Source: Escherichia phage BEK12A
Reading direction: 5' to 3' (one strand)
DNA: 52,716 nucleotides
Sequence record: MN158210.1
Under the pieces are notes generated by a model. The model had not been told where the DNA came from and did not search any database. It worked only from the letters and a program-made list of their open reading frames with translations. The translations under genes were made by a program, and so were the position numbers. Every line of letters begins with the position of its first letter. The first letter of the stretch is position 1. Positions 22,119 through 50,665 of this stretch are shown one piece after another.

Positions 22119-22173
22119 CTTCAATACTCCTTAGTTGTTGTTGGCTGTAACTATACACGATCCGGCAAGCCGA

Positions 22174-22192
22174 GTTTAGCAAAAAGTGCTAT
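22174..22192 (-). promoter_or_regulatory. conserved 20-bp box upstream of leftward lipoprotein operon (variant GCTAAAC)
   Basis: minus strand reads ATAGCACTTTTTGCTAAAC, then 18 bp, then TATAGT. Confidence 0.5.
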
Positions 22193-27422: not shown

Positions 27423-27439
27423 GCAATACTAGCGGAGTT

Positions 27440-28901: not shown

Positions 28902-28913
28902 CTAGTCACCTCA

Positions 28914-28965
28914 TAGCATTTTTTGTTAAAACAGTTTATTGTAATGAGTCTATTATATACTCCAA
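28914..28965 (+). promoter_or_regulatory. conserved 20-bp box plus -10-like TATTAT upstream of helicase operon
   Basis: ATAGCATTTTTTGTTAAAAC, 18 bp, TATTAT; divergent from HTH gene. Confidence 0.55.
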
Positions 28966-28988
28966 ATGGCATTTTTTAAAGGTTTAAG

Positions 28989-30986: not shown

Positions 30987-31405
30987 TGGCTATAACTGAT
31001 AAAGGCGATTATCTTGAGTTTTACGAAAGGGATCCAACCGACACGAGAAGGGAAGTTAATCACCAGATAGATAGTTTTCAGTGGTTGACTTATGCTCATC
31101 CTTATTTGCTGGCGTGGCATACGGTAAACGAGAATGAGAAGTCTAAAGCAACGGCGATGATTGATCAGCAGTCCGGCTTGGTTAAGGGAGTAAGCGATTT
31201 CATCATCCTGATTGGTTTAAACGGAAAATACCCCTTTGCAGCGATTGAGATCAAACGAGTGAATAAATCAGGCAAGGGGAAAGCATCACCAGTCAGCGAT
31301 GAACAAAAGGCTTTTTTGCGTCGCGTTCGCAGCTTAGGAGGATTCGCTGCGGTAGCCTACGGATTCAATCAGTTTAAGTTGGCTATTGAATACATGCTTA
31401 AATAG
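30986..31405 (+). CDS. VRR-NUC domain nuclease
   Basis: GVSDFIILIG...AAIEIKR arrangement (D..E.K) typical of VRR-NUC. Confidence 0.6.
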   Translation: MAITDKGDYLEFYERDPTDTRREVNHQIDSFQWLTYAHPYLLAWHTVNENEKSKATAMIDQQSGLVKGVSDFIILIGLNGKYPFAAIEIKRVNKSGKGKASPVSDEQKAFLRRVRSLGGFAAVAYGFNQFKLAIEYMLK

Positions 31406-31446
31406 CACTTTTTGTTAAAACTGGCGCGATGGATTGCGCCATAATA
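31402..31446 (+). promoter_or_regulatory. conserved box - hairpin - ATAATA module
   Basis: ATAGCACTTTTTGTTAAAAC, hairpin GGCGCGATGGATTGCGCC, ATAATA; stop TAG of upstream gene inside box. Confidence 0.6.
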
Positions 31447-31474
31447 CAGAAAAACAAAACACGGGGTTACTAAA

Positions 31475-32655: not shown

Positions 32656-32913
32656 ATGAAAAAAGAGAGAAGCGTTTATTTAAATGAAACTGGCGAATGG
32701 TTGTTATTTCGCGCTATGGTGTGCGATGCACTTGATAAAAATCCTAACGTGAAAAAGATGATTGATTGCGATCCGTGGGAATTTTCAAGCGCATTAGATA
32801 TGAGCTTTGAGGAGACAAGAAAACTCCCGCTTGAAAAATGGCACGAACAAATCAGAAATGACATGCAAGAGTTTGTCGATTCGTGGAATTTTCAGCACGG
32901 AATGATCCACTAA
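32656..32913 (+). CDS. hypothetical protein
   Basis: 85 aa ORF ending in TAA that abuts the conserved box. Confidence 0.45.
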   Translation: MKKERSVYLNETGEWLLFRAMVCDALDKNPNVKKMIDCDPWEFSSALDMSFEETRKLPLEKWHEQIRNDMQEFVDSWNFQHGMIH

Positions 32914-32957
32914 TAGCACTTTTTGTTAAAACGCCCGGCCTAGTGTCGGGCATAATT
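32914..32957 (+). promoter_or_regulatory. conserved box - hairpin - CATAAT module
   Basis: ATAGCACTTTTTGTTAAAAC, CGCCCGGCCTAGTGTCGGGC, ATAATT; inverted twin at 36135-36173. Confidence 0.6.
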
Positions 32958-32988
32958 ATTTCAACGAAGCAAACATGAGGAAATAAAA

Positions 32989-35870: not shown

Positions 35871-36093
35871 ATGCGTCTGGCCACATATGAGTTTCGTTTG
35901 TTGGCTTGTTCGATTCGTCGTGCTGCCTTACTTCAATGCTGCAAGTGTCGCCGTACAGTTCTGCAATCTTGCGCTCATTTTCAACCGCCGATTGCTCGCT
36001 CCATCCAAAATCCCTGTCGTAAATTGTCGGTATTTCAGCAGAAGATCCGTTGTCATGATTATATACGCGAACTACTAAAAACTTGCTGGACAT
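35869..36093 (-). CDS. hypothetical protein
   Basis: 74 aa; RBS AAAAGG; last gene of leftward early operon. Confidence 0.45.
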   Translation of the reverse strand: MSSKFLVVRVYNHDNGSSAEIPTIYDRDFGWSEQSAVENERKIAELYGDTCSIEVRQHDESNKPTNETHMWPDA

Positions 36094-36129
36094 AATTTTA
36101 CCTTTTGGTTGTTTCGTTTCGATGAAACA

Positions 36130-36173
36130 AATATACCCGACACTAGGCCGGGCGTTTTAACAAAAAATGCTAT
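36130..36173 (-). promoter_or_regulatory. conserved box - hairpin - TATATT module (leftward)
   Basis: minus strand ATAGCATTTTTTGTTAAAAC, GCCCGGCCTAGTGTCGGG, TATATT, then CATCGAAACGAA box. Confidence 0.6.
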
Positions 36174-36364
36174 TCCATACGCTTTACCGTAACCAGTAAT
36201 ACACCATCATCATTGCATAAAACATGTTCAGTGGTGCTAAAAGCGCGCATATCTGAATAAAGTAGCGTAAGTAAAGCATGAATAAAATCCTCATGTGATA
36301 TTGAATTTACGGCGCAGTGCTTCAAGATCTTGTCTATTAGCTTTTGCCTGGAACAATTCATCAT
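36170..36364 (-). CDS. hypothetical small protein (start uncertain)
   Basis: stop TAG lies inside the conserved box like other early genes; 5' end overlaps upstream gene; possible RBS GGGGAGA. Confidence 0.3.
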   Translation of the reverse strand: MMNCSRQKLIDKILKHCAVNSISHEDFIHALLTLLYSDMRAFSTTEHVLCNDDGVLLVTVKRME

Positions 36365-36686
36365 CGCCCATCTCCCCTATTCTCGCCATATCCCTGATCC
36401 AGTCGTTGCGCATACCATCCAGGCTATACAATTCGAATCCGAAAGGCCGCTTTGATGATCCTTTGGACCAGTATTTTCCGCAGACCCCATCTATATAACC
36501 AGCCGTCATCATTCTTGCGCAAAATTCCTTAGATGCAAGGCTGGCGAACATTCGCGGCGTAAGTCCGGCGGCCCGCGCGAGCCGCTCGCATTCTCTATGC
36601 TGATAGATAAATTTGGCTATGTGCTGCCTGTTAAACCAGTCGTATGACTCACACCATTTATACAGATCAAGCAAAAACATAATCAT
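36291..36686 (-). CDS. hypothetical protein
   Basis: 131 aa, start overlaps stop of ATPase gene. Confidence 0.45.
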   Translation of the reverse strand: MIMFLLDLYKWCESYDWFNRQHIAKFIYQHRECERLARAAGLTPRMFASLASKEFCARMMTAGYIDGVCGKYWSKGSSKRPFGFELYSLDGMRNDWIRDMARIGEMGDDELFQAKANRQDLEALRRKFNIT

Positions 36687-38263
36687 CCCAGCAGTATTGG
36701 ATTGACAAAAATAACACCATTAATCACGCAAACATAATTTCTTTCTTCCAGCATTGGCAGCAAGTGCCCCTCTATCCTCTTCATTACGCCAGCCTGACCA
36801 ACGAAAGGTTTTACCTTTCTCGCTGATTCGTACAGGGCGCGAATATTCAGGATCCCTTTGTTAGCCTTGCCGTGCCTCGTGATCAATTCAATCAATTTAC
36901 CCATTTCAGCATCATCACCAGCATAACCAGAAGCATTGGCGGCGCTAATGTATGTTTTGCTCAATTCATGAAACATGATCAGCGCCTCTTGCATTGTTTC
37001 AACGTCGATCTCTTTCGACTTCTGCGGGTATCCAGCAGGATTAAACCAGTTGCGGATAACATGCAGGACGGAAGCAAGCCTGATCACCTGTTTATCCATT
37101 TTACCCAGCGCACCGCGTAACATTGTATGAGAATACTTTCCGCCGTCTGCAAGATGCGGTTCCATATCCTGGCGAGCAATGTTGAGCACTCGCATAGCTG
37201 AACGGCTTATTTTCAGCGATATATTTGATTCGCTCATGATGTTATGCACCAATTGATAATATTGGGCCTTCAATTCAGGATCCACCGCCTCATAGGTAGA
37301 ATCACCATTTTCATCAATGAATGAGCGACGGCCTAAGAATGATTCCTCACGGACCAACAAAAAGCGCTCACTCACACCGATACCGCGCGATCCAGCGTCC
37401 ATGATTCCGCTTATCGTTTCATCCTGGGCTATAACGCTCATACATCCAAGCGCGCGAAAACTCATGTTATTGTCAGCATTAGCACGGGCGATTGATACGT
37501 GACCATTATCCCACGCCTTAAGCACTAGCTCGCTGTTAGTCTTCCTTTCGCTATTGGCATATGTCAAGCCTAACAGGCTGTTAATACTTGTTGCTTCGTC
37601 AGATATTACGGCAAAGTTACCTTGCTTGTTGTTGATTTTCGCCAAGCCTTCTGGAGTTGTATCTGAAACAGGGAAAGTTATATCACACATTTTTTCCAGC
37701 TTCTCCTCCAGATCCTCTTTTTCCTGGTATAGAGATTCCATATCAGCGCCTGATCTTTCGCTTTTCATCTCCTTTGCAAGACCTGCCAACTTTGCCTGTA
37801 TTTTCTTTCTTTCCTTGCGGCGTTGCTCGTTGATCTTCTCAACTTCCGCAATCATCGGAGCAATAGCCATGCTGTTGATCGCAGATTTACCAGTTGACGG
37901 CGGCTGGCTTGTAACGACGTAAAGCGCAGTCGGCTGATCGGTCCCGTGATAGTCAACCGTAAAGCGTCCAAGCATGGCGGCAGAAATGCAGCCGATAAAG
38001 TGCATGTAAGCCGATGATTCAGGGAATTGAATGGATCGCGCAATACTGCGTGATAACTTTCCGACAACATCAATATCATTACCAAGAGAAATGACGGGGT
38101 AGCGATCGTGACCGCTATTTACATCCTTTACGTCGCCCCAAAAGCTGGACGACTGGCGATAGCCGTTAGCCTGAATTGATACGCGAACTGGTGAAAGGTT
38201 CTGGCTTTCAGCCATAGCGATTATTTGCTGTGGAGTTAATTTGTTCGTTTCTAATGAAAACAT
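36683..38263 (-). CDS. P-loop NTPase of unknown function
   Basis: Walker A-like QPPSTGKS and Walker B-like AVISDEAT separated by a charged coiled-coil segment; RBS AAAGGAG. Confidence 0.5.
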   Translation of the reverse strand: MFSLETNKLTPQQIIAMAESQNLSPVRVSIQANGYRQSSSFWGDVKDVNSGHDRYPVISLGNDIDVVGKLSRSIARSIQFPESSAYMHFIGCISAAMLGRFTVDYHGTDQPTALYVVTSQPPSTGKSAINSMAIAPMIAEVEKINEQRRKERKKIQAKLAGLAKEMKSERSGADMESLYQEKEDLEEKLEKMCDITFPVSDTTPEGLAKINNKQGNFAVISDEATSINSLLGLTYANSERKTNSELVLKAWDNGHVSIARANADNNMSFRALGCMSVIAQDETISGIMDAGSRGIGVSERFLLVREESFLGRRSFIDENGDSTYEAVDPELKAQYYQLVHNIMSESNISLKISRSAMRVLNIARQDMEPHLADGGKYSHTMLRGALGKMDKQVIRLASVLHVIRNWFNPAGYPQKSKEIDVETMQEALIMFHELSKTYISAANASGYAGDDAEMGKLIELITRHGKANKGILNIRALYESARKVKPFVGQAGVMKRIEGHLLPMLEERNYVCVINGVIFVNPILLG

Positions 38264-38294
38264 TCGTTAGCTTCTCCTTTGTGGGCCGTAAATT

Positions 38295-38335
38295 TTAACG
38301 GCCCAATACTACCCCGTTTTGTCAAAAAGTGCTAT
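38295..38335 (-). promoter_or_regulatory. conserved box (variant TTGACAAAAC) - hairpin module (leftward)
   Basis: minus strand ATAGCACTTTTTGACAAAAC, then 18 bp, then TAAAAT inside hairpin GGGCCGTTAAAATTTACGGCCC. Confidence 0.55.
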
Positions 38336-38553
38336 TTGATCCGCTCTATTGCAACCAGAAGTCGATCAGGCTGGCGGTCGCTGTAGCATTCTCCTGTAAT
38401 CCCATCCTTAAACGTAAAGTAAAGCGCCTTATGATATGAAAAACCAATCAGCCAACCTACCGACGTTTTTTTGATGGGCCTGACTATATCGCCAGGCTTG
38501 AAGGTTTTTGTTGCTGAATTAGTAACCTTATAGCGATATTCAGTCTTGATCAT
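38332..38553 (-). CDS. hypothetical protein
   Basis: ATG at codon 40 of the 38670 ORF, overlapping HNH stop; about 73 aa; stop TAG in box. Confidence 0.4.
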   Translation of the reverse strand: MIKTEYRYKVTNSATKTFKPGDIVRPIKKTSVGWLIGFSYHKALYFTFKDGITGECYSDRQPDRLLVAIERIK

Positions 38554-39061
38554 AAGGCTTCTCGCTTCCGTGGTTTTCGTGGAATCCGTACTTTTTCCAA
38601 ATAGCATCTCTTGATGATACAGCGCTATCAATTGATGCATGATAACCACCAGAAATACACCTGCCATCAACAGTTACTTGTACGCACCATTTAGACACCC
38701 TCTTATTCCACATCACGCCAGTATAACCAGATTTATTTGTCGATCTCCTTGTGTGGTTTTGTGAGTTTTGTTTTCTTGTGACAAGCCGGAGGTTTTCGAT
38801 TCTATTGTCATCTCTTATGTGATTCACGTGATCTATCTCCATTCCTTTTGGTATTGTTTTTCCATGCATCCACCAAACAATCCAATGCGCCGGATACTCT
38901 CTGCCACCAATACCTATACGTCTATATCCGTTTTTAGTTATATAACCTGCCTCATCGCCAATTTTTGCCCGTCTTCCTGATGGGCTTTTCCATAATAGAC
39001 GACCATTTTCATATATAAATAAATTTAGAAGTACTTGCCTTGAAATTCCGCTATTGCACAT
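38540..39061 (-). CDS. HNH homing endonuclease
   Basis: HWIVWWMHG...EIDHVNHIRDDNRIENLRLVTRKQNSQN. Confidence 0.8.
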   Translation of the reverse strand: MCNSGISRQVLLNLFIYENGRLLWKSPSGRRAKIGDEAGYITKNGYRRIGIGGREYPAHWIVWWMHGKTIPKGMEIDHVNHIRDDNRIENLRLVTRKQNSQNHTRRSTNKSGYTGVMWNKRVSKWCVQVTVDGRCISGGYHASIDSAVSSRDAIWKKYGFHENHGSEKPYDQD

Positions 39062-39252
39062 TTAAATCCCACCTCGCGTCTTTCAAGAGTCCATTGCTCA
39101 CCTTGAGCATCAACAACGTAACCAGCTACAGCGCCTAAAACCCTTCCCATAATTATCTCATAGCGTTTCCCTTCCTTAAAATGCTGACCTGGCTTTACGC
39201 TGTTCATGTGGTGGTAAACTTTTGTGCATTTTATTGTTCTCTTCTTTGTCAT
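39025..39252 (-). CDS. hypothetical protein
   Basis: 75 aa; RBS AAAGGAGAAATAAACG. Confidence 0.45.
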   Translation of the reverse strand: MTKKRTIKCTKVYHHMNSVKPGQHFKEGKRYEIIMGRVLGAVAGYVVDAQGEQWTLERREVGFKCAIAEFQGKYF

Positions 39253-39283
39253 CGTTTATTTCTCCTTTCGTTTCGGTGAAGTG

Positions 39284-39327
39284 ATTATGCCAGGTTTTTA
39301 CACCTGGCTTTTAACAAAAAGTGCTAT
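39284..39327 (-). promoter_or_regulatory. conserved box - hairpin - CATAAT module (leftward)
   Basis: minus strand ATAGCACTTTTTGTTAAAAG, CCAGGTGTAAAAACCTGG, CATAAT, CACCGAAACGAA. Confidence 0.6.
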
Positions 39328-40010
39328 TTTGAGTTTGACTCAAAGACGGCGCGAGCAAATCCGCGCGGAGTGAGGGAGCGTAGTTGCTTTGTTCTGGCAG
39401 ACTTACCGCCTAAAAACTTCCAACCCCAAAAGAACATTACGCCCTCATCATTGGATAACGGCTTGCGTTCCGGTTCTGTAAATCCGTTGCCGCACCAGAT
39501 AGCAGTCCTTTTTGTGTAGCCATCCTTTAGCGGCATCTTGGGGTGAAAAGATCCATCGGATTCGTCCAGGTAGTTACCAAAATCGCGAGGATTGAAATAA
39601 AAATCAGGCTTGCGCCATAGCGTTGATAGTCGGCCTACAGGATTCTCAGCCATCCAGGGAACACCGAAATGATTCCCGACAGTTTCAACCATGATTGCAT
39701 TTTTGAGCGCAACCTGAATATCATCATCGCTTCGCACGTGCTTGATTCCTGATTGGGCAAACATGGTGCAGTCTGGAAATCCAAATACAATATCTGGTTT
39801 TGGAATACCAATCTTACTGATTCTTTCAATGAAATTTTCATCAATCCACATATTCACATAATGCAGATTTTCATGTTTCATCTTGATGAAATATTCGCCG
39901 TGATTGCCTTCATCAGCGTTAAAGCAATAGCATTGATAGCCAGCCTTCGCATATTCAAGCAGCATGATTCCAGATCCATCAAACATTGAGTAAGCAACTT
40001 TATTTCCCAT
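39324..40010 (-). CDS. putative DNA methyltransferase-like protein (divergent C5-cytosine MTase-like motifs)
   Basis: FDGSG (motif I-like), GFPDCTMFAQSG (PC-motif-like with an insertion), ENPVG (ENV-like); divergent, so assignment is tentative. Confidence 0.35.
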   Translation of the reverse strand: MGNKVAYSMFDGSGIMLLEYAKAGYQCYCFNADEGNHGEYFIKMKHENLHYVNMWIDENFIERISKIGIPKPDIVFGFPDCTMFAQSGIKHVRSDDDIQVALKNAIMVETVGNHFGVPWMAENPVGRLSTLWRKPDFYFNPRDFGNYLDESDGSFHPKMPLKDGYTKRTAIWCGNGFTEPERKPLSNDEGVMFFWGWKFLGGKSARTKQLRSLTPRGFARAVFESNSK

Positions 40011-40527
40011 GATTTTTATGATACCCCAATTCATTCTCGGCTTTACGTTTTGCGGCAACAGCATCTCCAAAACTGGAAAAACAACCTATATAAATCCTAC
40101 TTCCTCTCCTTCCGCCTCCAACCCTTACAACCCATTTGCCATGTTTATTTTTATGCACACCTGGTATGCCACTTGTATTGTTTTTCTGCTTTGATGTGTT
40201 TCGCATATTTCCTTTGTGATCTTTTAACTCAAAGTTTATTGCTCTGTTATCAGTCGTAATGTGATTTACGTGATCAACCTCCTTTCCTTCCGGTATAGGC
40301 CCATAGTGCATTTCATAGCATATTCTATGAACTTTCAGGTTATAACGTTTTCCGTTTACAGTAAGTGCAGTTTCTAAATATCTGCCACCACTACCCAAAG
40401 AGCCAACCTCATTACCAGCATTGCAAGCATTCCATTGTTTAACTCTTGATGGGTGAATATCTTTTCTTTCTTTCCAGAACAGCTTTCCAGTTTCTGGATT
40501 GTATGTAAAGTAATCGTGCCAATTCAT
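40000..40527 (-). CDS. HNH homing endonuclease (HNH plus AP2-like)
   Basis: HRICYEMHYGPIPEGKEVDHVNHITTDNRAIN; C-terminal AP2-like segment similar to 528..1019. Confidence 0.8.
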   Translation of the reverse strand: MNWHDYFTYNPETGKLFWKERKDIHPSRVKQWNACNAGNEVGSLGSGGRYLETALTVNGKRYNLKVHRICYEMHYGPIPEGKEVDHVNHITTDNRAINFELKDHKGNMRNTSKQKNNTSGIPGVHKNKHGKWVVRVGGGRRGSRIYIGCFSSFGDAVAAKRKAENELGYHKNHGK

Positions 40528-40535
40528 TCATTACC

Positions 40536-40763
40536 TCAAAACGGAAAACAGCGCGCACAACCAGGATCGAAATCGCATCCACAATCATTAACAATCATAG
40601 TGGGATCTGCAAATATTGCGCTTGATTCAAGATCCATATCCATATCACCTAAAGCCTCATCAAGAGTCTTAATTTTATATGCCACTTCAAGCGCCGCCTC
40701 TTTATTTAGTCCGGCATCTTCTGCCATTTGAAGGCGATCAAAAAAACCGTCCTGACTCATCAC
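40536..40763 (-). CDS. hypothetical acidic protein
   Basis: 75 aa with C-terminal Cys cluster CGCDFDPGCARC. Confidence 0.4.
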   Translation of the reverse strand: MMSQDGFFDRLQMAEDAGLNKEAALEVAYKIKTLDEALGDMDMDLESSAIFADPTMIVNDCGCDFDPGCARCFPF

Positions 40764-40873
40764 ATAACTCCCTTAATAACAGCCAAGATAATAGCCAGAC
40801 CAGCAGCAGTAACCAAAAAACCAACCGCGCCAATAATCGAATAAAAAAAGAAATCAATAGCTTTATCTATCAT
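40762..40873 (-). CDS. small hydrophobic membrane peptide (about 37 aa, not in ORF track)
   Basis: MIDKAIDFFFYSIIGAVGFLVTAAGLAIILAVIKGVM; RBS GAGGTGG; coordinates approximate. Confidence 0.3.
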
Positions 40874-40887
40874 TTTCCACCTCATTT

Positions 40888-40912
40888 AAAAGGCGGCAAA
40901 ACGCCGCCAGAT
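40888..40912 (-). terminator. hairpin with T-run (leftward), attenuator-like
   Basis: minus strand GGCGGCGTTTTGCCGCC plus TTTT. Confidence 0.35.
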
Positions 40913-40915
40913 TAA

Positions 40916-41143
40916 TTAAAGAGCGCGCCAACTTTGAATATAGAAAGCGTTTTCTTCCAGTAATTCTTTTAACTGATCTTTATTGTATTTGCGCACCTTG
41001 CCGCCTGGATGGATACCAATAAGATAGCCGCCTTTGCCCTCTGTGATAGTGATTTGGCTAATTCCGCAGGACTTATCAAGTTTTACAGCCACGCGGTGAT
41101 GAGCGTCAATAGTTGCCATAATGTTTAAAACTTTTGCTTTCAT
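40916..41143 (-). CDS. hypothetical protein
   Basis: 75 aa; RBS GAGGA. Confidence 0.45.
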   Translation of the reverse strand: MKAKVLNIMATIDAHHRVAVKLDKSCGISQITITEGKGGYLIGIHPGGKVRKYNKDQLKELLEENAFYIQSWRAL

Positions 41144-41255
41144 TTAAATATCCTCAATTGAAATATGAATGACGTGGCGCTCTTTTTCCGTCGCCTCCGT
41201 AATGGTCATTTGCAACAGCTACCATCCAGGAATTATGGAATATTATTAGCTTCAT

Positions 41256-41537
41256 CTAATTAATGCCAACAACGTTAAAACTTACAGCTTTTGTTGCGCT
41301 AAATACATACGCTTCAACAGCCTCACCAAATACACGAATTTTACCCTGGCCGTACTGCGCATTCATATTTCGCCAAACCGTTCTATTAGAGCAGAATGCG
41401 CTACCAGTCTTAATAAGCGTATCCATCTCTTTTCTTAGATCGCGATAGTCAAGCCAGAATCTAAAGGCGCGCTGTTTAATTCGCGCCGCCTTGATTTTTT
41501 CTCTTGCGCTATTGAAATCATTCTTTTCGTATGCCAT
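41256..41537 (-). CDS. hypothetical protein
   Basis: 93 aa, basic. Confidence 0.45.
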   Translation of the reverse strand: MAYEKNDFNSAREKIKAARIKQRAFRFWLDYRDLRKEMDTLIKTGSAFCSNRTVWRNMNAQYGQGKIRVFGEAVEAYVFSATKAVSFNVVGIN

Positions 41538-41734
41538 TAAATGATCTCCATGTATGTTTCAAAGCCATTTAACTTGAACAGGCCGTTTTCACATTTGCGC
41601 ACGTTCCAAGTTAGCCCTGAGTGGTACGCCTCCATATCATCAAGGTCAATGGTGATTTCAGCACCTTTCTTAAACAAACCTTTTTCGTGAGACTTGTCGC
41701 GCTTAACAACTTTAACATCAACCTGATTTTCCAT
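41537..41734 (-). CDS. hypothetical protein
   Basis: ATG at codon 18 of the 41785 ORF with RBS GAGGA; about 65 aa. Confidence 0.45.
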   Translation of the reverse strand: MENQVDVKVVKRDKSHEKGLFKKGAEITIDLDDMEAYHSGLTWNVRKCENGLFKLNGFETYMEII

Positions 41735-41764
41735 CTTTAAATCCTCGTTCGTTGTCGATGGGTG

Positions 41765-41809
41765 TAATATACCATTCAGGCGCACATCGTTTTTAACAAA
41801 AAGTGCTAT
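41765..41809 (-). promoter_or_regulatory. conserved box - TATATT - CATCGACAACGAA module (leftward)
   Basis: minus strand ATAGCACTTTTTGTTAAAAAC, then 17-18 bp, then TATATT. Confidence 0.6.
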
Positions 41810-42096
41810 TCAACAACTTTTCCAGTTAAAGAGATAAGTTGCCTTGTAATATTGTGGCGGCGATACTGACGCGCAACAACAGGAAGGCTTTCACCGCTTT
41901 GATGACCAAAACAGATCGGCAATTCACCTTCAAGGGAGCGGAAGCCACCAAATTCAAGATCCCGCACTGGCTTCGTGCGCCAGGCTTCAATAAATCCGCG
42001 CTCGTCACGAGTGATATAGCGGTATATATTTGGGAGGGGCAATTGTATCCCCTCAAAATCCACTGTGTCGGTGTAGCTGTAAAACTTAGAACTCAT
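41806..42096 (-). CDS. hypothetical protein
   Basis: ATG at codon 18 of the 42147 ORF; stop TAG in box. Confidence 0.4.
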   Translation of the reverse strand: MSSKFYSYTDTVDFEGIQLPLPNIYRYITRDERGFIEAWRTKPVRDLEFGGFRSLEGELPICFGHQSGESLPVVARQYRRHNITRQLISLTGKVVE

Positions 42097-42239
42097 AGTC
42101 AACAACTCCAAACTCGTTAACGATTTGCGCCTTGTAGAATCCGCCATTTTTCGCCAGGTTGTAACAAGCGGCTACGGTTTCAAATTCGCGCGCTTCCGGC
42201 TGGCTGTTTTCGTGTTCCCAGGTAATCAGAGTAACCATT
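42087..42239 (-). CDS. small hypothetical protein (about 50 aa, not in ORF track)
   Basis: MVTLITWEHENSQPEAREFE...; first ORF after the 42273-42316 module; coordinates approximate. Confidence 0.3.
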
Positions 42240-42272
42240 TTCAAATCCTCGCATTCGTTGTCGATGCGTGTA

Positions 42273-42316
42273 ATGTACAGGAATGCGAGGATTGAGTTTT
42301 AACAAAAAGTGCTATT
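42273..42316 (-). promoter_or_regulatory. conserved box - TACATT - CATCGACAACGAA module (leftward)
   Basis: minus strand ATAGCACTTTTTGTTAAAAC, then 18 bp, then TACATT; stop TAA of upstream gene abuts box. Confidence 0.6.
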
Positions 42317-42579
42317 TAGTCCAGGAATTCGATTTCACGCTCTCCAGTTAACGGATCTACAAGCCAGAATCCGAGCGGTTCGCCGTGAACACCGCCATAG
42401 AATCCAAGCGCCGTCAGATCTTCACCTTTAACAAATACCAGGTTTCCGCTACGGCTTACGTGAGACACGTTAACGATAACCGGAAATGTGCGATCCTTAA
42501 ATGCGGGCCGCAGGGCGTAGCATCCGTTGTTGAGCAAACGTGCTTTGCGCTTAACTGGAATAGGTGCATTAATTTTCAT
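42316..42579 (-). CDS. hypothetical protein
   Basis: 87 aa; RBS AAGGAG. Confidence 0.5.
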   Translation of the reverse strand: MKINAPIPVKRKARLLNNGCYALRPAFKDRTFPVIVNVSHVSRSGNLVFVKGEDLTALGFYGGVHGEPLGFWLVDPLTGEREIEFLD

Positions 42580-42591
42580 GGTTATTACTCC

Positions 42592-42804
42592 TTATCGTAA
42601 AGATTTAAAGACGTATAGTTTATTGCGGTAACTATATATCCGCATTGTTATTTCTCGCAGTGCAATATATTCCTTCCTGTTTTCCGGCAGACTGGCGAGC
42701 AACAACAGGCAGTATTTATAAGCGCGGTCAAGATTTCTTTCCGTGCCCCTGCAATATCCCTTGTTGCGCCTGGAGCGGTACAGCCATAACAATTTCTTGA
42801 ACAT
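42592..42804 (-). CDS. hypothetical protein (start uncertain)
   Basis: internal ATG chosen to avoid overlap with upstream gene. Confidence 0.3.
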   Translation of the reverse strand: MFKKLLWLYRSRRNKGYCRGTERNLDRAYKYCLLLLASLPENRKEYIALREITMRIYSYRNKLYVFKSLR

Positions 42805-42805
42805 T

Positions 42806-43015
42806 TCAGATACGCCCATACAGATCACAGACTTCGTTGATAAAACAGCGTTGAGACTCTTTATCCTGCTTCTCAAACATCGCAAGGCATTCAAACTTAT
42901 GATTATGCACGATGACTACAACCATGTTTTCAGGCATTGAGCGGTTATAGCGTTGCGCATCACTGATTGAAACGTCCATACCCATTTCATGTGCTTTCTT
43001 GATCACATCCAACAT
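42806..43015 (-). CDS. hypothetical protein
   Basis: ATG at codon 9 of the 43039 ORF (ORF-track start is TTG). Confidence 0.4.
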   Translation of the reverse strand: MLDVIKKAHEMGMDVSISDAQRYNRSMPENMVVVIVHNHKFECLAMFEKQDKESQRCFINEVCDLYGRI

Positions 43016-43269
43016 TTTTTCTTCTCCTGCAATAAGCAAACATCATTGATAAAATCAGCACGGCCCTTAATGTTGCTGATGTGGAACGTCTTTTCAGCGT
43101 ACAGGCCATCACCTTCAATCACGATCATTACGCGAGTCGGTTTATTCACGGGCGCACACGAAAAGAGTGGTCGCGCCGGAAGAAATTTAGTCATCACATC
43201 CAGGTTAGCCCTGGCGGCCCTGCAAAATGCCTCCGCCAGATCCAAATCATTTTCGGTAATCACCGCCAT
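43003..43269 (-). CDS. hypothetical protein
   Basis: 88 aa, ATGA-type coupling to upstream gene. Confidence 0.45.
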   Translation of the reverse strand: MAVITENDLDLAEAFCRAARANLDVMTKFLPARPLFSCAPVNKPTRVMIVIEGDGLYAEKTFHISNIKGRADFINDVCLLQEKKKCWM

Positions 43270-43541
43270 TACTTCTTGATCTCCTCACTGATAAATTTCA
43301 GCACCTGACGTAAGAAAACCTCGTTGTTGATAGTCGCTGGCAATTCTTCTTTCACTTCTTGCGGCAGATAGATATTGCCGTGCCAGGTCAAGCAATCGTA
43401 GTTGATGCGATAAGAGCAAAGCCACTCGCAATCGTTATCTGCTTCCCAAATGCAGAGTTGCAGAACATCGCCAAAATCCTCAACAGTCAGATCCAGACCG
43501 TGACGCTTAGCGAAGTTGAAAGTGGTTTTGCTGATGTTCAT
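43269..43541 (-). CDS. hypothetical protein (first gene of leftward early operon)
   Basis: 90 aa; RBS CAGGAGA. Confidence 0.5.
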   Translation of the reverse strand: MNISKTTFNFAKRHGLDLTVEDFGDVLQLCIWEADNDCEWLCSYRINYDCLTWHGNIYLPQEVKEELPATINNEVFLRQVLKFISEEIKK

Positions 43542-43575
43542 TGCTATCTCCTGAGCGGTTCGTTTCGATGTGTGT

Positions 43576-43619
43576 AATGTACCCGATCAGGTGGTCTGAG
43601 TTTTAACAAAAAGTGCTAT
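43576..43619 (-). promoter_or_regulatory. conserved box - TACATT - CATCGAAACGAA module heading the leftward early operon
   Basis: minus strand ATAGCACTTTTTGTTAAAAC, then 18 bp, then TACATT; no gene upstream, so it acts as operon leader. Confidence 0.6.
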
Positions 43620-43644
43620 TTGACGGTTAGCGCCAGGATTGTGA

Positions 43645-44680: not shown

Positions 44681-44949
44681 AAAAGGCATTAATCAGCGTT
44701 TTGGTGGCAATGGCATTCCTGACCGGATGTAAAGAGGATGGCGCGCATGTTGGCAATGTGCAGATGGCTAACCCTGGCGATAACTACAGCGTAAGGGAGC
44801 TATTCACCGTTGACGGTTGCACCGTTTACCGATTCTATGACGATCGCACTGTTTACTTCACCAACTGCAAGGGCACTACTAGCTGGGGAGTGTCGAAAAG
44901 CAATGGCAAAGGCACGAAGACAGAACATATGACCGTCGAGACAAAATAG
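44677..44949 (+). CDS. lipoprotein of unknown function
   Basis: MKKALISVLVAMAFLTGCKE lipobox signal; ATGA coupling. Confidence 0.5.
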   Translation: MKKALISVLVAMAFLTGCKEDGAHVGNVQMANPGDNYSVRELFTVDGCTVYRFYDDRTVYFTNCKGTTSWGVSKSNGKGTKTEHMTVETK

Positions 44950-44989
44950 CACTTTTTGTTAAAACTCGAAAACGATAACCAGACATAAT
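44946..44989 (+). promoter_or_regulatory. conserved box - CATAAT module
   Basis: ATAGCACTTTTTGTTAAAAC, 18 bp, CATAAT, then hairpin GGGCGGCACGGCGTCGCCC; stop TAG in box. Confidence 0.6.
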
Positions 44990-45043
44990 AAATCACATAG
45001 GGCGGCACGGCGTCGCCCACAAAACCAATCAGGAGAAAGCACC

Positions 45044-45940
45044 ATGTTAAAACTTGCTGACATTAAATTCCCGATCACCTTCGAATCTCGCGGCATTGGT
45101 CATTACATTTTTACTGATGAAAAAACATGCCATAGAGTTGATTTGCATAGCTACAAGCGTGCGCCATCAATCATGGAGATTGAACACTTCATTGATGCAC
45201 ATAACAAGCACTACAACGCCCTTAAAGACTATGGCTATGCAATGCCAGGCTACACATGTTTGCACTACAAGCCATATAAGGGCCAGGTTCTACCAGTGCG
45301 ACCGATGCAACCATTGCGACCGCAGGACGTAGCAAGCCAGACAACTTACAAGCGATTAGATGAAGTGATCAAGAAATCAGTGAAAGAAGCGACTAAGCTG
45401 ACGGTTGATAAAATCAAGTATCCGATCACGTTCCATACAGTAGGAAACAGTAAGGTAACTTTCACATCGCGCGAAGATGGCAAATACGAAAGCGGTAACG
45501 CGACTGGTTACAAGGTTGATTACTTTGTTGACTGCCACAATGATTACAATCCTGAAAACGAAAAAGGTATAGTTTACTACGTGGAAGACCTTGCAAAGCA
45601 CATTTTTTCGATTCCAGACTACTGGAAGATTAACAAGGTGGGCGACGCTATTCACAACCAGGTAGAGCAATCCCTAAACGACCGTTGCAAGACTTTACGC
45701 ATCGAAAAAGGCGAAGTGGTCACTATTGGGCGCATTGAGTCCATGCCGCTTGGGGCCAAACTCCTGGCTATCCAGGACGACGAGGGCAACTATCAAGATG
45801 TGGTAATGCCGATCGTTAAAATTGAAGTGCACGACGACAACATTTGTCTACTGTCACATTTTGGCGGGTACAAGAGCAAGCGGTTTACGGCTGAGCTAAA
45901 TATCAAGCGCGGAACGTTTGCTAAGTGGAAGTTTGACTGA
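45044..45940 (+). CDS. hypothetical protein with internal tandem duplication
   Basis: 298 aa; IKFPITFESRG...HFIDAHNKHYN and IKYPITFHTVG...YFVDCHNDYN repeat units. Confidence 0.5.
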   Translation: MLKLADIKFPITFESRGIGHYIFTDEKTCHRVDLHSYKRAPSIMEIEHFIDAHNKHYNALKDYGYAMPGYTCLHYKPYKGQVLPVRPMQPLRPQDVASQTTYKRLDEVIKKSVKEATKLTVDKIKYPITFHTVGNSKVTFTSREDGKYESGNATGYKVDYFVDCHNDYNPENEKGIVYYVEDLAKHIFSIPDYWKINKVGDAIHNQVEQSLNDRCKTLRIEKGEVVTIGRIESMPLGAKLLAIQDDEGNYQDVVMPIVKIEVHDDNICLLSHFGGYKSKRFTAELNIKRGTFAKWKFD

Positions 45941-45982
45941 TAGCACTTTTTGTTAAAACTCAAATGTGGGGCCAGATATAAT
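45940..45982 (+). promoter_or_regulatory. conserved box - hairpin - TATAAT module
   Basis: ATAGCACTTTTTGTTAAAAC, GGGCCAGATATAATGGCCC with TATAAT 17-18 bp after box; stop TGA abuts box. Confidence 0.6.
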
Positions 45983-46012
45983 GGCCCTACTTTCAACGAG
46001 AGGGGAAACGCG

Positions 46013-47608: not shown

Positions 47609-47800
47609 ATGGCTGACTTTATGCATCAAATGATTGTTGTATTTAAGGGCAGTGAAGATGAAGAGGTTCGCGAATGCTTCACCATTGAGAAATCATACAG
47701 CGCATCTTTAACCAGTTTTGGCAACATATCTATGATTGATGATAATGGCGATCCGTGGATTTTTGAAGATGATACGGATTGCTTTGAGATTAAAGAATAG
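47609..47800 (+). CDS. hypothetical acidic protein
   Basis: 63 aa; stop TAG in box. Confidence 0.4.
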   Translation: MADFMHQMIVVFKGSEDEEVRECFTIEKSYSASLTSFGNISMIDDNGDPWIFEDDTDCFEIKE

Positions 47801-47840
47801 CACTTTTTGCAAAAACAGATTGTCGGGCTTGCGGTATAGT
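47797..47840 (+). promoter_or_regulatory. conserved box (variant GCAAAAAC) - hairpin - TATAGT module
   Basis: ATAGCACTTTTTGCAAAAAC, GGGCTTGCGGTATAGTAAGCCC, then CATCAACAAACGAGGA. Confidence 0.55.
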
Positions 47841-47868
47841 AAGCCCATCAACAAACGAGGATTAAATC

Positions 47869-48708: not shown

Positions 48709-49299
48709 ATGAAACGAGACATTATCATCCTTAATGGGCCTCCAGGTTGCGGGAAGGACACTATTGCAGCTTACCTAACGGGCCATCGTTACCAAGCGGT
48801 TAAGGCATCATTCAAGCAACCTATGTTCGACATTGCTTTTTCTATGCTTGGCCCGACTCGATACGATGAATTTATGGACCTGTACAACGACCGAGAGCAA
48901 AAAGAAAAGCCTCAAGTTATCTTAGGCGGCAAGTCACCTCGACAATTCATGATCTGGATTAGCGAGGATGTAATGAAGCCAGTTTTTGGGGATCACTATT
49001 TCGGGCGTCGAATGGTTGAAGAGATTCACGAGATGTACCGAGATTTGGCGGTTGTGATCAGTGATGGCGGATTCCCCGAAGAAATCAAGCCGCTCGTTAA
49101 GGCGGGGCATGAGGTGCATATTTGCCGATTGCATCGCTACGGCTTCACGTTTGCTGGCGATTCGAGAGACTACATTGACCTGAGCGGTTATCACTATCGA
49201 ATCCATCACTATGATTTCCACTTGCAGGACGGTAAGCCGGAACTGGCTGTAAACGAGATCGTCAATGCTGTCAAATGGAAGCACACACAGATTAAATAG
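48709..49299 (+). CDS. P-loop kinase (nucleotide / polynucleotide kinase-like)
   Basis: Walker A ILNGPPGCGKDT at extreme N-terminus, typical of small NMP/polynucleotide kinases. Confidence 0.5.
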   Translation: MKRDIIILNGPPGCGKDTIAAYLTGHRYQAVKASFKQPMFDIAFSMLGPTRYDEFMDLYNDREQKEKPQVILGGKSPRQFMIWISEDVMKPVFGDHYFGRRMVEEIHEMYRDLAVVISDGGFPEEIKPLVKAGHEVHICRLHRYGFTFAGDSRDYIDLSGYHYRIHHYDFHLQDGKPELAVNEIVNAVKWKHTQIK

Positions 49300-49339
49300 C
49301 ACGAATTGCTAAACGCGGGGTTATCGGCCCCGCTATAAT
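49296..49339 (+). promoter_or_regulatory. variant conserved box - hairpin - TATAAT module
   Basis: ATAGCACGAATTGCTAAAC, GCGGGGTTATCGGCCCCGC, TATAAT; stop TAG in box. Confidence 0.45.
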
Positions 49340-49369
49340 GCTCACATCAACAAGCAAGAGGAAATCACA

Positions 49370-50299: not shown

Positions 50300-50590
50300 A
50301 TGGCAAACAAAACTTACCGCAAACTACTGGTTAACGCTTTTGAAAACATCGCGCAGTCTAACAAGTGGAACGACTCTAAACACTCGCCAGTCACAATGAA
50401 GCGCGTCGGATTCAAAAATGCTCGTTCATGGGCGCGAGCTTTCGCAGCTTGCTATATGCCGGATGGTGGGCTAGGAGCGATGAACGATTTTTTGATCAAC
50501 ATGATAGAGGAAGCGGCGCGAGAGGATCGACCGCTGACACAGCGAGATTTTGACGACTTCGCGCGCGATGAGCTTTACTATCTGAGCTAA
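50300..50590 (+). CDS. hypothetical protein
   Basis: 96 aa; stop TAA abuts box. Confidence 0.45.
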   Translation: MANKTYRKLLVNAFENIAQSNKWNDSKHSPVTMKRVGFKNARSWARAFAACYMPDGGLGAMNDFLINMIEEAAREDRPLTQRDFDDFARDELYYLS

Positions 50591-50631
50591 TAGCACTTTT
50601 TGTTAAAACTTCCGCAAGGGCATTTGATAAA
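50590..50631 (+). promoter_or_regulatory. conserved box - hairpin - GATAAA module
   Basis: ATAGCACTTTTTGTTAAAAC, AAGGGCATTTGATAAAGTGCCCTT, then GAAGCGAAACAGAGGA. Confidence 0.55.
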
Positions 50632-50665
50632 GTGCCCTTATTGAAGCGAAACAGAGGAAAGCGCA

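What the first reader, a model, noticed from the sequence alone, without database searches (positions are those of the whole stretch)
36100..43600. Conserved purine-rich CATCGAAACGAA box between the -10-like element and the RBS in leftward early modules
Downstream of the box-hairpin units at 36130, 39284, 41765, 42273 and 43576 the minus strand reads CATCGA(A/C)AACGAA about 10-20 nt before the Shine-Dalgarno. Weaker versions (CAACGAG, GAAGCGAAAC, CATCAACAAACGAGGA) occur in rightward modules. It would lie in the 5' UTR and could be a translational enhancer or regulator binding site.
Basis: seen in the sequence. Interest (0 to 1): 0.4.

Follow-up and report, generated by a model that had tools for sequence, protein, structure and literature searches.

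The report
Shared start-site box of phage promoters
The CATCGAAACGAA box is real, but it is best read as the predicted transcription start site and first ~12 transcribed bases of a repeated 64-bp early-promoter cassette of this T1-like coliphage, whose upstream half looks like a binding site for the host regulators MarA/SoxS/Rob, rather than as a ribosome-linked enhancer. The same start-site box also sits in promoters of unrelated enterobacterial phages.

Summary
The window is the whole genome of Escherichia phage BEK26, a T1-like phage (Drexlerviridae).

**The observation.** The five leftward boxes exist. Three read CAYCGAAACGAA and two read CATCGACAACGAA. A plain motif count is not above shuffles. 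Position tells a different story: each box starts exactly 5 nt after a -10 hexamer. That hexamer lies exactly 18 bp after an almost invariant 20-bp box, ATAGCACTTTTTGTTAAAAC.

**The upstream box.** It scores as a top-tier marbox, the binding site of MarA/SoxS/Rob. Its position matches class II geometry, with GCAC at -47..-44 as in micF.

**What the CATCGAAACGAA box is.**
- The A of CATCGA is the predicted +1, so the box spans -1 to +11.
- In about 350 cassettes from related phages it is anchored to the -10, not to the start codon.
- It precedes at least 56 unrelated genes.
- It evolves 2-3 times more slowly than the neighbouring non-coding positions.
- The exact 12-mer, at the same spacing, also follows canonical -35/-10 promoters in T4-like Klebsiella phage KP15 and in phi80-type lambdoid pL, where no ribosome-binding site is near.
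- It resembles the annotated starts of T7 A1 (CATCGA) and A3 (CATGAAACGA).

**Best reading.** It is a start-site and initial-transcribed element that favours productive initiation and leaves an unstructured 5' end. A translational-enhancer role is not supported. A binding site for a regulator is not excluded.

The parts
36111..36173 (-). Promoter cassette 1. Marbox 36173-36154, -10 TATATT ending at 36130, predicted +1 at 36123, ATG at 36093.
36113..36124 (-). Box CATCGAAACGAA, spanning -1 to +11. It is the top weight-matrix hit in the whole window (17.2 bits).
39265..39327 (-). Promoter cassette 2. Marbox 39327-39308, spacer hairpin GCCAGG..CCTGGC, TGgCATAAT ending at 39284, predicted +1 at 39277, ATG at 39252. 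A gene-replacement junction against phages tiwna and JLBYU10 lies at 39261.
39267..39278 (-). Box variant CACCGAAACGAA (14.9 bits).
41747..41809 (-). Promoter cassette 3. Marbox 41809-41790, extended -10 TGgTATATT ending at 41766, predicted +1 at 41759, ATG at 41734.
41748..41760 (-). Box variant CATCGACAACGAA, the 13-nt allele with an inserted C.
42253..42315 (-). Promoter cassette 4. Marbox 42315-42296, -10 TACATT ending at 42272, predicted +1 at 42265, ATG at 42238.
42254..42266 (-). Box variant CATCGACAACGAA.
43557..43619 (-). Promoter cassette 5, the first promoter of the leftward early operon. Marbox 43619-43600, -10 TACATT ending at 43576, predicted +1 at 43569, ATG at 43541.
43559..43570 (-). 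Box CATCGAAACGAA (15.1 bits).
47797..47859 (+). Rightward cassette with a weak box. Marbox variant GCACTTTTTGCAAAA, TATAGT, then CATCAACAAACGAG. ATG at 47869.
50590..50652 (+). Rightward cassette with TATTGAAGCGAAAC, a start-region variant that recurs across the phage family. ATG at 50666.
32913..32975 (+). Rightward cassette with the weak box CAACGAAGCAAACA. ATG at 32989.
49296..49358 (+). Eighteenth cassette, carrying the alternative marbox allele ATAGCACGAATTGCTAAAC. Spacer hairpin, TATAAT 49334-49339, then CATCAACAAGCA. ATG about 49371.
22132..22192 (-). Cassette with an A/C-rich start region, CAACAACAACTAAGGAG, and no strict box.
28913..28973 (+). Cassette in front of the helicase gene, without the box.
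31402..31462 (+). Cassette without the strict box (AAAACAAAACACGG).
38275..38335 (-). Cassette in which a hairpin embraces the -10 (TAAAAT). No box.
44946..45006 (+). Cassette with a 48-nt structured leader. No box.
45940..46000 (+). Cassette with TATAAT one base closer to the marbox. Weak start region CTTTCAACGAGAGG.

Best explanation
CATCGAAACGAA is the 3'-terminal conserved block of a repeated promoter cassette of about 64 bp. The cassette uses the host sigma-70 RNA polymerase.

**Cassette layout:**
- a 20-bp marbox, the binding site of MarA/SoxS/Rob, in forward class II position in place of a -35 element;
- an 18-bp variable spacer, often a hairpin;
- an extended -10;
- a 5-nt G-poor discriminator;
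- the box.

The C of the box is -1 and the A is the transcription start. ATCGAAACGAA is therefore the initial transcribed sequence and, at the same time, the 5' end of a leader of about 25 nt.

**Shown:** the architecture, the fixed spacing, the conservation, and the occurrence in other phage families.

**Inferred:**
- The start site itself. No 5'-end mapping exists for this phage.
- The function. The box would fix initiation at a C(-1)/A(+1) step. It would also give a purine-rich, T-poor initial transcribed region with no T/C-G step at +5..+7. That should let RNA polymerase leave a tightly held, activator-bound promoter quickly. As a by-product the mRNA gets an unstructured, A-rich, U-poor 5' end just upstream of the Shine-Dalgarno.

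The box also marks the downstream edge of the repeat at which genes are swapped between related phages.
For: **Architecture**
- There are 17 copies of TAGCACTTTTTGTTAAAA against 0.11 expected, and an 18th copy with a variant allele.
- In 300 non-identical cassettes from related phages the spacer carries about 0.1 bit per position. G(-14) is 85% conserved and the -10 reads TATAAT. C(-1) is 74% and A(+1) 85%, followed by TCGAAACGAA.

**Start site**
- The A lies 7 nt after the -10.
- Counting from it, GCAC falls at -47..-44. In the Rob-RNA polymerase structure on the class II micF promoter, Rob contacts -47G and -45A (PMC9178005). Class II sites cluster near -41 in forward orientation (PMC10268841).
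- The annotated T7 starts read C-A(+1)-TCGAGAGG for A1 and C-A(+1)-TGAAACGAC for A3.

**Anchoring to the promoter, not to the ribosome-binding site:**

**Independence from gene context and signs of selection**
- Of 131 different downstream gene N-termini, 23 follow an exact box, 16 a box with one edit, and 17 a box with two edits.
- Within orthologous promoters the pairwise difference is 0.08 for the box, 0.22 for the spacer and 0.18 for the discriminator.

**Independence from the marbox and from T1-like phages**
- The pattern TTG-N20-TAnnnT-N5-CATCGAAACGAA hits at least 120 viral stretches (capped). Two composition-matched permuted 12-mers hit 3 and 0.
- The hits include KP15, a T4-like phage, and phi80 pL with its annotated -35 and -10.

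**Agreement with known rules for the initial transcribed sequence**
- T is 5-10% at +3..+17, against 26% in the genome.
- Heyduk & Heyduk 2018 report that slow-escaping sequences carry 2-3 T's in the first ~7 bp and TG at +5/+6. They also note that purine content correlates with productive yield and that this region changes escape kinetics (their enrichment measure) over about three orders of magnitude.

**RNA properties:** the leaders are unstructured and there is no Rfam match.

**Edge of the repeat:** similarity between paralogous cassettes ends at the last base of the box. A replacement junction lies 6 nt after it.
Against: - No experimental 5'-end data exist for BEK26 or, as far as I could find, for any T1-like phage. 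The +1 is an inference.
- The known rules (purine-rich, T-poor) would be met by very many sequences. They do not explain why one exact 12-14-mer recurs in three phage families.
- The box contains two C-G steps, at +3/+4 and +8/+9, and a T at +2. In the lacUV5 context T(+2) went with slow escape.
- Seven or eight cassettes in the same genome, mostly rightward, lack the strict box and presumably still work.
- With leaders of only about 25 nt, a bound 30S subunit would also cover the box. Selection at the RNA level is therefore not excluded.
Confidence: 0.6

Rival explanations
1. RNA-level translational enhancer or standby site. As the single-stranded, A-rich 5' end of a ~25-nt leader, the box would bind the 30S subunit (for example protein S1) and raise initiation at the adjacent Shine-Dalgarno.
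For: - The box makes up nearly the whole 5' UTR upstream of the Shine-Dalgarno.
- The most common leader length is 25-26 nt.
- The leaders are unstructured and A-rich (46% A at +3..+14).
Against: - The box is anchored to the -10, not to the start codon.
- It is absent from ribosome-binding sites that lack the promoter: 142 of 152 occurrences are in cassettes.
- It is present at phi80-type pL, far from any ribosome-binding site.
- Its complementarity to 16S rRNA is lower than that of all 300 shuffles.
- It is U-poor, whereas known S1-type enhancers are A/U-rich (my own knowledge).
Confidence: 0.13
2. Specific recognition site for a factor. On DNA it could be an operator overlapping +1, used to shut early promoters off. 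On RNA it could be a 5'-terminal tag read by a phage or host protein, nuclease or small RNA that controls early mRNAs as a class.
For: - An exact 12-14-mer is conserved beyond what generic properties of an initial transcribed sequence require.
- The box is a tandem pentamer, CGAAA-CGAAA-C, and family variants keep the YGAAR-YGAAA pattern.
- Within the window it marks only the leftward early operon.
- It overlaps +1, a classic operator position.
Against: - It occurs in phage families that share no obvious early regulator: T1-like, T4-like KP15 and lambdoid phi80. A phage-encoded reader is therefore unlikely, and a host factor would be needed.
- It has no dyad symmetry.
- No known RNA family matches.
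- No candidate binder was found.
Confidence: 0.15
3. Mostly hitch-hiking. The box would have little function of its own. It would persist because whole promoter cassettes are copied and exchanged by recombination within and between phages, and because it serves as the downstream homology arm for gene shuffling.
For: - Paralogous similarity spans exactly from marbox to box, about 64 bp, and a gene-replacement junction lies 6 nt after the box.
- KP15-like phages share the whole cassette, including the marbox and the ACACA discriminator, which points to horizontal transfer.
Against: - The spacer between marbox and -10 is not homogenised (about 0.1 bit). Copying alone therefore does not explain the conserved blocks.
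- Within orthologous promoters the box changes 2-3 times more slowly than its non-coding neighbours.
- In lambdoid pL only the box is shared, while operators, -35, -10 and discriminator all differ. In Rahnella prophages the leader after the 14-mer differs as well.
Confidence: 0.1

Closest known systems
Start regions of the E. coli RNA polymerase early promoters A1 and A3 of phage T7
   Same: - Both have C at -1 and A at +1.
- A1 reads CATCGAgaggga and A3 reads CATGAAACGAcag, at the annotated starts 498 and 750.
- The box reads like A1's first six bases joined to A3's GAAACGA.
- All are early promoters that a host polymerase must use immediately after DNA injection.
   Different: - T7 A1 and A3 have canonical -35 elements and 7-nt discriminators.
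- Identity is partial: 6 of 12 contiguous bases for A1, and 11 of 12 with one gap for A3.
- No functional link between these sequences has been shown.
Downstream sequence region / initial transcribed sequence of phage T5 early promoters (N25 and relatives)
   Same: - A conserved transcribed block directly after +1 in strong phage early promoters.
- It is known to change promoter output by affecting escape. Kammerer 1986 and Hsu 2006 are cited in PMC5961368; see also PMC12464699.
   Different: - The sequence is different (T5: ATAAATTTGAGAGAGG, quoted from memory, and T-rich).
- An effect of the BEK26 box on escape has not been tested.
Class II MarA/SoxS/Rob promoters such as micF
   Same: - A forward marbox overlaps the -35 position, with no recognisable -35 hexamer.
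- GCAC lies at -47..-44 and the site centre near -41.
- The phage site scores above 80 of 87 sites mapped by ChIP-seq.
   Different: - This concerns the upstream half of the cassette, not the box.
- Host class II promoters are not reported to share a start-site box.
- Binding and activation by Rob, MarA or SoxS have not been tested for the phage.
PeSL cassettes (promoter-early stem-loop) of T4-type phages
   Same: - A repeated composite unit of stem-loop, sigma-70 promoter, Shine-Dalgarno and start codon.
- It sits in front of small, variable early genes and at indel junctions between related genomes (for BEK26).
- KP15 carries true PeSL-like versions that contain this very box.
   Different: - PeSLs have near-consensus -35 elements. 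The T1-like cassette has a marbox instead.
- No conserved start-site box is mentioned in the passages of the 2014 PeSL paper that I retrieved. The 2010 paper was not read.
pL of phage phi80 and related lambdoid prophages
   Same: The exact CATCGAAACGAAAC lies 5 nt after the annotated -10. It is conserved across many immunity types whose operators differ.
   Different: - This is a repressor-controlled promoter with a canonical -35.
- Its leader runs into nutL and the N gene, not into a nearby ribosome-binding site.

Membership tests
Sigma-70 extended -10 promoter | A -10 hexamer of the TAnnnT type at a fixed position | tested here: met
   Positions 38-43 read T.63 A.87 T.77 A.58 A.59 T.88 across 300 cassettes. 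The window's hexamers are listed.
Sigma-70 extended -10 promoter | TG at -15/-14 | tested here: inconclusive
   G(-14) is 85% conserved, but T(-15) only 44%. Full TG occurs in 78 of 192 representative cassettes.
Sigma-70 extended -10 promoter | Transcription starts 6-8 nt after the -10 at a purine | not testable with these tools
   The conserved C-A step lies 7 nt after the hexamer. No 5'-end data exist.
Class II MarA/SoxS/Rob (marbox) promoter | A 20-bp asymmetric marbox with GCAC and YAAA recognition elements | tested here: met
   - GCACTTTTTGTTAAA scores 16.35 bits with a matrix built from 87 ChIP-seq sites. That is higher than 80 of those sites.
- In T1 the alleles TTTTT, GAATT, TAATT and AAATT vary only at the unspecified consensus positions.
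Class II MarA/SoxS/Rob (marbox) promoter | Forward orientation, overlapping the -35 position, about 41 bp upstream of the start, with no -35 hexamer | tested here: met
   - The site centre is at -40.5 and GCAC at -47..-44 relative to the predicted +1, which matches the criteria and contacts.
- The sequence at the -35 position reads AAAAC.
Class II MarA/SoxS/Rob (marbox) promoter | Bound and activated by MarA, SoxS or Rob | not testable with these tools
   No AraC/XylS-type protein was found among 20 phage proteins of at least 88 aa. A host factor is therefore inferred, not shown.
PeSL-type mobile regulatory cassette | Stem-loop plus early promoter plus Shine-Dalgarno and start codon, repeated in front of variable genes | tested here: met
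   The window holds 18 cassettes, many with spacer hairpins.
PeSL-type mobile regulatory cassette | Near-consensus -35 / N17 / -10 promoter | tested here: not met
   The spacing from TTGTTA to the -10 is 22 bp, and there is no -35 at the canonical place. The KP15 versions do meet this feature.
PeSL-type mobile regulatory cassette | Located at indel or replacement junctions between close relatives | tested here: met
   Homology with tiwna and JLBYU10 resumes at 39261, which is 6 nt after the box. An isolated 120-bp island of homology covers cassette 2. Only this one region was examined.
Functional initial transcribed sequence (T5 N25 / T7 A1 type) | A conserved sequence from +1 to about +12-20 among strong early promoters | tested here: met
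Functional initial transcribed sequence (T5 N25 / T7 A1 type) | Changes the abortive-to-productive ratio or the escape rate | not testable with these tools
   There is only agreement with published rules: T-poor, purine-rich, and no T/C-G step at +5..+7.
Translational enhancer (epsilon-type or S1-type) | Complementarity to 16S rRNA | tested here: not met
   The best duplex is -5.9 kcal/mol against a shuffle mean of -9.8. All 300 shuffles pair at least as well.
Translational enhancer (epsilon-type or S1-type) | Positioned relative to the Shine-Dalgarno or start codon and found at ribosome-binding sites in general | tested here: not met
   The box is anchored to the -10. 93% of occurrences are inside promoter cassettes. 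It is present at phi80 pL without a ribosome-binding site.
Any Rfam RNA family | Match at the gathering threshold | tested here: not met
   There were 0 matches in the whole window.

The most novel reading that the evidence does not exclude
The 12-14-nt box is a discrete, sequence-specific 'initiator' element of enterobacterial sigma-70 promoters. It would be read by the host machinery: either RNA polymerase during initial transcription or a factor that recognises the 5' end of the RNA. Unrelated phage families (T1-like, KP15-type T4-like, phi80-type lambdoid, with echoes in T7 A1/A3) would have acquired or converged on it for their first-wave promoters. In T1-like phages it is coupled to a consensus marbox. 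Early phage transcription would then be wired to the host Mar/Sox/Rob stress and bile regulon, most plausibly through the abundant Rob protein.
Probability: 0.2. Interest if true: 0.8.

Novelty: new variant of a known kind. Interest (0 to 1): 0.55.

Why it matters
**The box**
- Bacterial promoters are usually described as ending at the -10 and discriminator. Work on the initial transcribed sequence has found strong effects but no natural consensus.
- One exact start-site block shared by the early promoters of several unrelated enterobacterial phages would be a natural example of such a consensus.
- It would also be a compact part for building strong promoters.

**The cassette**
- It gives a concrete, testable answer to how T1-like phages, which encode no RNA polymerase, drive their early genes.
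- They appear to use promoters with no -35 element and a textbook marbox. This predicts dependence on host Rob, MarA or SoxS.
- I found no paper in the searched library that contains the box sequence or that links marboxes to these phages.

Tried and rejected
- **Sigma-54 reading of the upstream box** (TGGCAC-N5-TTGC). Rejected by eye. The GG and GC dinucleotides are missing, the spacing is wrong, and a sigma-70 -10 sits at a fixed distance.
- **TTGTTA as a -35 element.** Rejected. Its spacer to the -10 is 22 bp in every copy.
- **A phage-encoded MarA-like activator.** No AraC/XylS domain was found in 20 non-structural proteins of at least 88 aa. Only a Cro/YdaS-like helix-turn-helix and a weak sigma-70 region 4-like hit turned up. 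Smaller proteins were not scanned.
- **Known RNA family.** None.
- **RNA structure in the leaders.** None.
- **Pairing with 16S rRNA.** Less than in shuffles.
- **Association of the box with weak -10 elements, as compensation.** The opposite holds. The box goes with good -10 hexamers (Spearman -0.33). It shows no association with TG.
- **Literature.** No paper holds CATCGAAACGAA or TTTTTGTTAAAA in a phage context. One search was wasted on over-broad terms. The Rtp genome paper is not held. The T1 RefSeq record annotates only terminators, no promoters.
- **Scan of bacterial genomes.** There were 66 stretches. About 19 are Enterobacterales prophages of the phi80 pL type. Four more are phage sequence under other organism names (three KP15-like, one phi80-like), probably contamination. 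The rest are scattered among unrelated taxa.

Full report
**Identity of the window**

The 52,716-bp window is the complete genome of Escherichia phage BEK26 (MN158216, 100% identity), a T1-like siphovirus of the Drexlerviridae, genus Warwickvirus. Window coordinate = record coordinate + 22,177. The finding lies in the leftward operon of small early genes (window about 35,870-43,540). A rightward early operon starts at 44,217.

**Checking the observation**

All five boxes are present on the minus strand:
- 36124-36113 CATCGAAACGAA
- 39278-39267 CACCGAAACGAA
- 41760-41748 CATCGACAACGAA
- 42266-42254 CATCGACAACGAA
- 43570-43559 CATCGAAACGAA

The pattern as written matches only the two 13-mers. 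A position-blind count is no better than shuffles: 4 against 3.4 with up to 2 mismatches, and 4 against 1.95 for CGAAACGA. The box ends 0-8 nt before the Shine-Dalgarno, not 10-20.

**The box belongs to a larger repeat**

TAGCACTTTTTGTTAAAA occurs 17 times with up to 3 mismatches, against 0.11 expected. An 18th copy carries the allele GCACGAATTGCTAAA. In every copy a -10-like hexamer follows TTGTTA after exactly 22 nt. The box, where present, starts 5 nt after that hexamer.

I collected cassettes from 120 stretches of related viral contigs that contain the upstream box, including phages T1 and Rtp. Aligned only on the upstream box, 300 non-identical cassettes give this profile:
- upstream box nearly invariant;
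- spacer about 0.1 bit per position;
- G at -14 in 85%;
- -10 reading TATAAT;
- then C (74%), A (85%), T C G A A A C G A A.

So the box is a family-wide, position-specific element. A weight matrix was built from 148 representative cassettes that are not orthologous to any in the window. Its hits ranked 1, 2, 3, 5 and 8 among about 105,000 window positions are the five predicted sites. In 1.03 Mb of related DNA, 142 of 152 occurrences with at most 1 mismatch lie downstream of the upstream box, 135 of them at one offset.

**What the upstream box is**

It matches the binding site of the host activators MarA, SoxS, Rob and RamA, known as the marbox.
- ChIP-seq sites in Salmonella include GCACATTTTGTTAAA, GCACTTTTTGCAAAA and GCATTTTTTGCTAAA.
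- A matrix from the 87 published sites scores the phage site at 16.35 bits, above 80 of the 87 real sites. The window's top 17 matrix hits are 16 of the 17 cassette copies plus the variant-allele copy at 49299.
- In T1 itself the alleles TTTTT, GAATT, TAATT and AAATT differ only at positions the marbox consensus leaves free. The consensus, AYnGCACnnWnnRYYAAAYn, is quoted from memory of Martin et al. 1999.
- The site is in forward orientation and overlaps the -35 position, which has no -35 hexamer. Counted from the A of CATCGA, its GCAC falls at -47..-44. Rob contacts -47G and -45A in the class II micF complex. Class II sites are forward and cluster near -41.
- None of 20 phage proteins of at least 88 aa has an AraC/XylS domain. 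A host factor is therefore the likely reader. This is inferred, not shown.

**Where the box sits**

The A of CATCGA lies 7 nt after the -10 and follows a conserved C. It gives the correct class II geometry. It also corresponds to the annotated +1 of T7 promoters A1 (gatact-tacagc-C-A-TCGAGAGG) and A3 (tacgat-gtacca-C-A-TGAAACGAC). The box therefore spans -1 to +11 or +12. It is the start site and the initial transcribed sequence, and also the first half of a leader whose most common length is 25-26 nt.

**Promoter-linked or ribosome-linked?**
- Aligned on the -10, the twelve positions carry 8.1 bits. Aligned on the start codon, the same region carries 0.1-0.5 bit per position.
- The box is almost never found outside cassettes.
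- Its RNA pairs less well with E. coli 16S rRNA than all 300 shuffles.
- The leaders are unstructured and no Rfam family matches.

**Selection**
- The box precedes many unrelated genes. Of 131 clusters of downstream N-termini, 23 follow an exact box, 16 a box with one edit and 17 a box with two edits.
- Within 16 groups of orthologous promoters the mean pairwise difference is 0.03 for the marbox, 0.22 for the spacer, 0.18 for the discriminator, 0.08 for the box and 0.11 for the rest of the leader.

**Beyond T1-like phages**

The pattern TTG-N20-TAnnnT-N5-CATCGAAACGAA describes a canonical -35/-10 promoter followed by the box. It hits at least 120 viral stretches (capped), with 80 distinct sequences. 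Two composition-matched permutations of the 12-mer hit 3 and 0. The hits include:
- The T4-like Klebsiella phage KP15, with three such promoters within 700 bp. One has the marbox. Two have TTGCAT inside a terminator hairpin. They are annotated as 'putative middle promoter; MEME'.
- Several other contigs of about 180 kb.
- A large set of phi80-type lambdoid prophages. In phi80 itself the annotated pL reads TTGACC-17-TTTAAT-tactc-CATCGAAACGAAAC. NutL boxA follows about 60 nt later and the N gene about 400 nt later.

Across these prophages the operators, -35, -10 and discriminator all differ, while the box is constant. In Rahnella prophages the leader after the 14-mer differs too. So the box travels with the start site, not with the marbox and not with a ribosome-binding site.

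In one genome per bacterial species the same pattern gives 66 stretches. About 19 are Enterobacterales prophages. The rest are scattered, and I could not run a control for them.

**Mechanism**

Shown: the architecture, the spacing, the conservation and the distribution.

Inferred: the box fixes initiation at a C/A step and supplies an initial transcribed region that lets RNA polymerase leave the promoter efficiently.
- In representative cassettes T is 5-10% at +3..+17 against 26% in the genome. G is 2-10% from -4 to +3. A is 46% at +3..+14.
- Published high-throughput work shows that this region can change escape kinetics (their enrichment measure) over about three orders of magnitude. Slow-escaping sequences carry 2-3 T's in the first ~7 bp and TG at +5/+6. 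Purine content correlates with productive yield.
- The box has AAA at +5..+7 and no T after +2.

What these rules do not explain is why one exact 12-14-mer recurs. That leaves room for a specific reader (rival 2) or for horizontal spread of cassettes (rival 3).

**Cassette behaviour**

Similarity between paralogous cassettes spans exactly from marbox to box, about 64 bp. Against phages tiwna and JLBYU10, an isolated 120-bp island of homology covers cassette 2. Homology resumes at 39261, which is 6 nt after the box and 9 nt before the ATG. This resembles the promoter-stem-loop (PeSL) cassettes proposed to mediate gene shuffling in T4-type phages. The difference is that a marbox replaces the -35 element.

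**Within-genome pattern**

Only the five leftward cassettes carry the strict box. Rightward cassettes carry looser A/C-rich starts, some of which are recurrent family variants such as CATTGAAGCGAAAC and TATTGAAGCGAAAC. The first rightward gene uses a canonical TTGACA-17-GATAAT promoter without a marbox.

**Verdict**

The 5' UTR location is right. The translational-enhancer reading is not supported. A regulator site is not excluded.

The best-supported reading is a start-site and initial-transcribed element of a marbox-dependent, extended -10 early-promoter cassette, with the same element shared by unrelated enterobacterial phages. I found no paper in the searchable library that contains the box sequence or links marboxes to T1-like phages. 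That library omits most subscription journals, including the T1 and Rtp genome papers.

Noticed in passing
All 18 cassettes, e.g. window 43600-43619 (-), 44946-44965 (+), 49296-49315 (+): The upstream 'box' of the box-hairpin units is a near-consensus marbox (MarA/SoxS/Rob site) in class II position. It scores above 80 of 87 ChIP-seq sites. Phage T1 carries about 20 copies, and their alleles vary only at the free positions of the consensus. This predicts that early transcription of T1-like phages depends on host Rob, MarA or SoxS.
   Followed up: partly
window 10975-11065 (-) and 27351-27440 (+): Two cassettes abut the Shine-Dalgarno of a divergent late gene (a tail gene at 11080+ and the tail fibre gene ending at 27333-). 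They fire straight into an intrinsic terminator. At 11065 there is a good extended -10 (TGATAGATT), which would give an RNA of about 37 nt: ACAGGAAUGAAAAAAGGGGCGCAACGCCCCUUGUUUU. The unit is conserved in phage T1 (L317 18849, minus strand). It could be a tiny RNA, a decoy site, or a reverse marbox acting on the late gene.
   Followed up: partly
window 7284-7303 (-): A marbox copy sits in the intergenic gap between two plus-strand structural genes and points antisense. On the plus strand it would be a reverse-orientation marbox overlapping the -35 position of the gene that starts at about 7350, as described for yadG in Salmonella.
   Followed up: no
window 3029-3095 (+): A marbox variant, AATAGCACGAATCGACAAA, is followed by TATATAAT at a shorter spacing, then by a terminator hairpin, just before the portal gene. 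The arrangement differs from the standard cassette.
   Followed up: no
Cassette spacers, e.g. 39288-39307 (-), 38281-38302 (-), 47820-47845 (+), 50613-50638 (+), 49316-49334 (+): G+C-rich inverted repeats lie either wholly within the 18-bp spacer or embrace the -10 hexamer, with one arm in the spacer and one in the discriminator. In the T1 RefSeq record the intergenic hairpins are annotated as rho-independent terminators and no promoters are annotated.
   Followed up: no
window 39261 and 38512-39260: The gene downstream of cassette 2 is replaced in phages tiwna and JLBYU10. Homology resumes 6 nt after the box. The cassette is the only conserved island in the region.
   Followed up: partly
window 43640-43745 and 43880-44040: Upstream of the first leftward cassette there are several GTAATCA/TAATCA repeats. 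Further on lies an odd stretch rich in TATATA and GTATGT. The first rightward gene uses a canonical TTGACA-17-GATAAT promoter at 44159-44187. This region may hold operators or an origin.
   Followed up: no
window 28425-28901 (-) (record 6248-6724) and 33495-34610 (+) (record 11318-12433): These are candidate phage regulators: a Cro/YdaS-like helix-turn-helix protein of 158 aa, and a 371-aa protein with a weak sigma-70 region 4-like helix-turn-helix plus a metallophosphatase domain. The T1 homologue of the first is annotated 'transcriptional regulator'.
   Followed up: no
L281, L286 (Flagellimonas marina), L303 (Streptomyces sp. P17, 244-bp contig), L262 (Parachlamydiaceae MAG): KP15-like or phi80-like phage promoter sequences appear in assemblies of unrelated bacteria. 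This is probably contamination of those assemblies.
   Followed up: no
L018 / NC_014036 10042-10425 (KP15); L172, L181, L218, L235: In T4-like Klebsiella and Enterobacter phages the same marbox sits about 11 bp further upstream. It is followed by a terminator hairpin that contains a TTGCAA-type -35 element, then TATATT-acaca-CATCGAAACGAA. This is a different marbox geometry joined to the same start-site box.
   Followed up: partly
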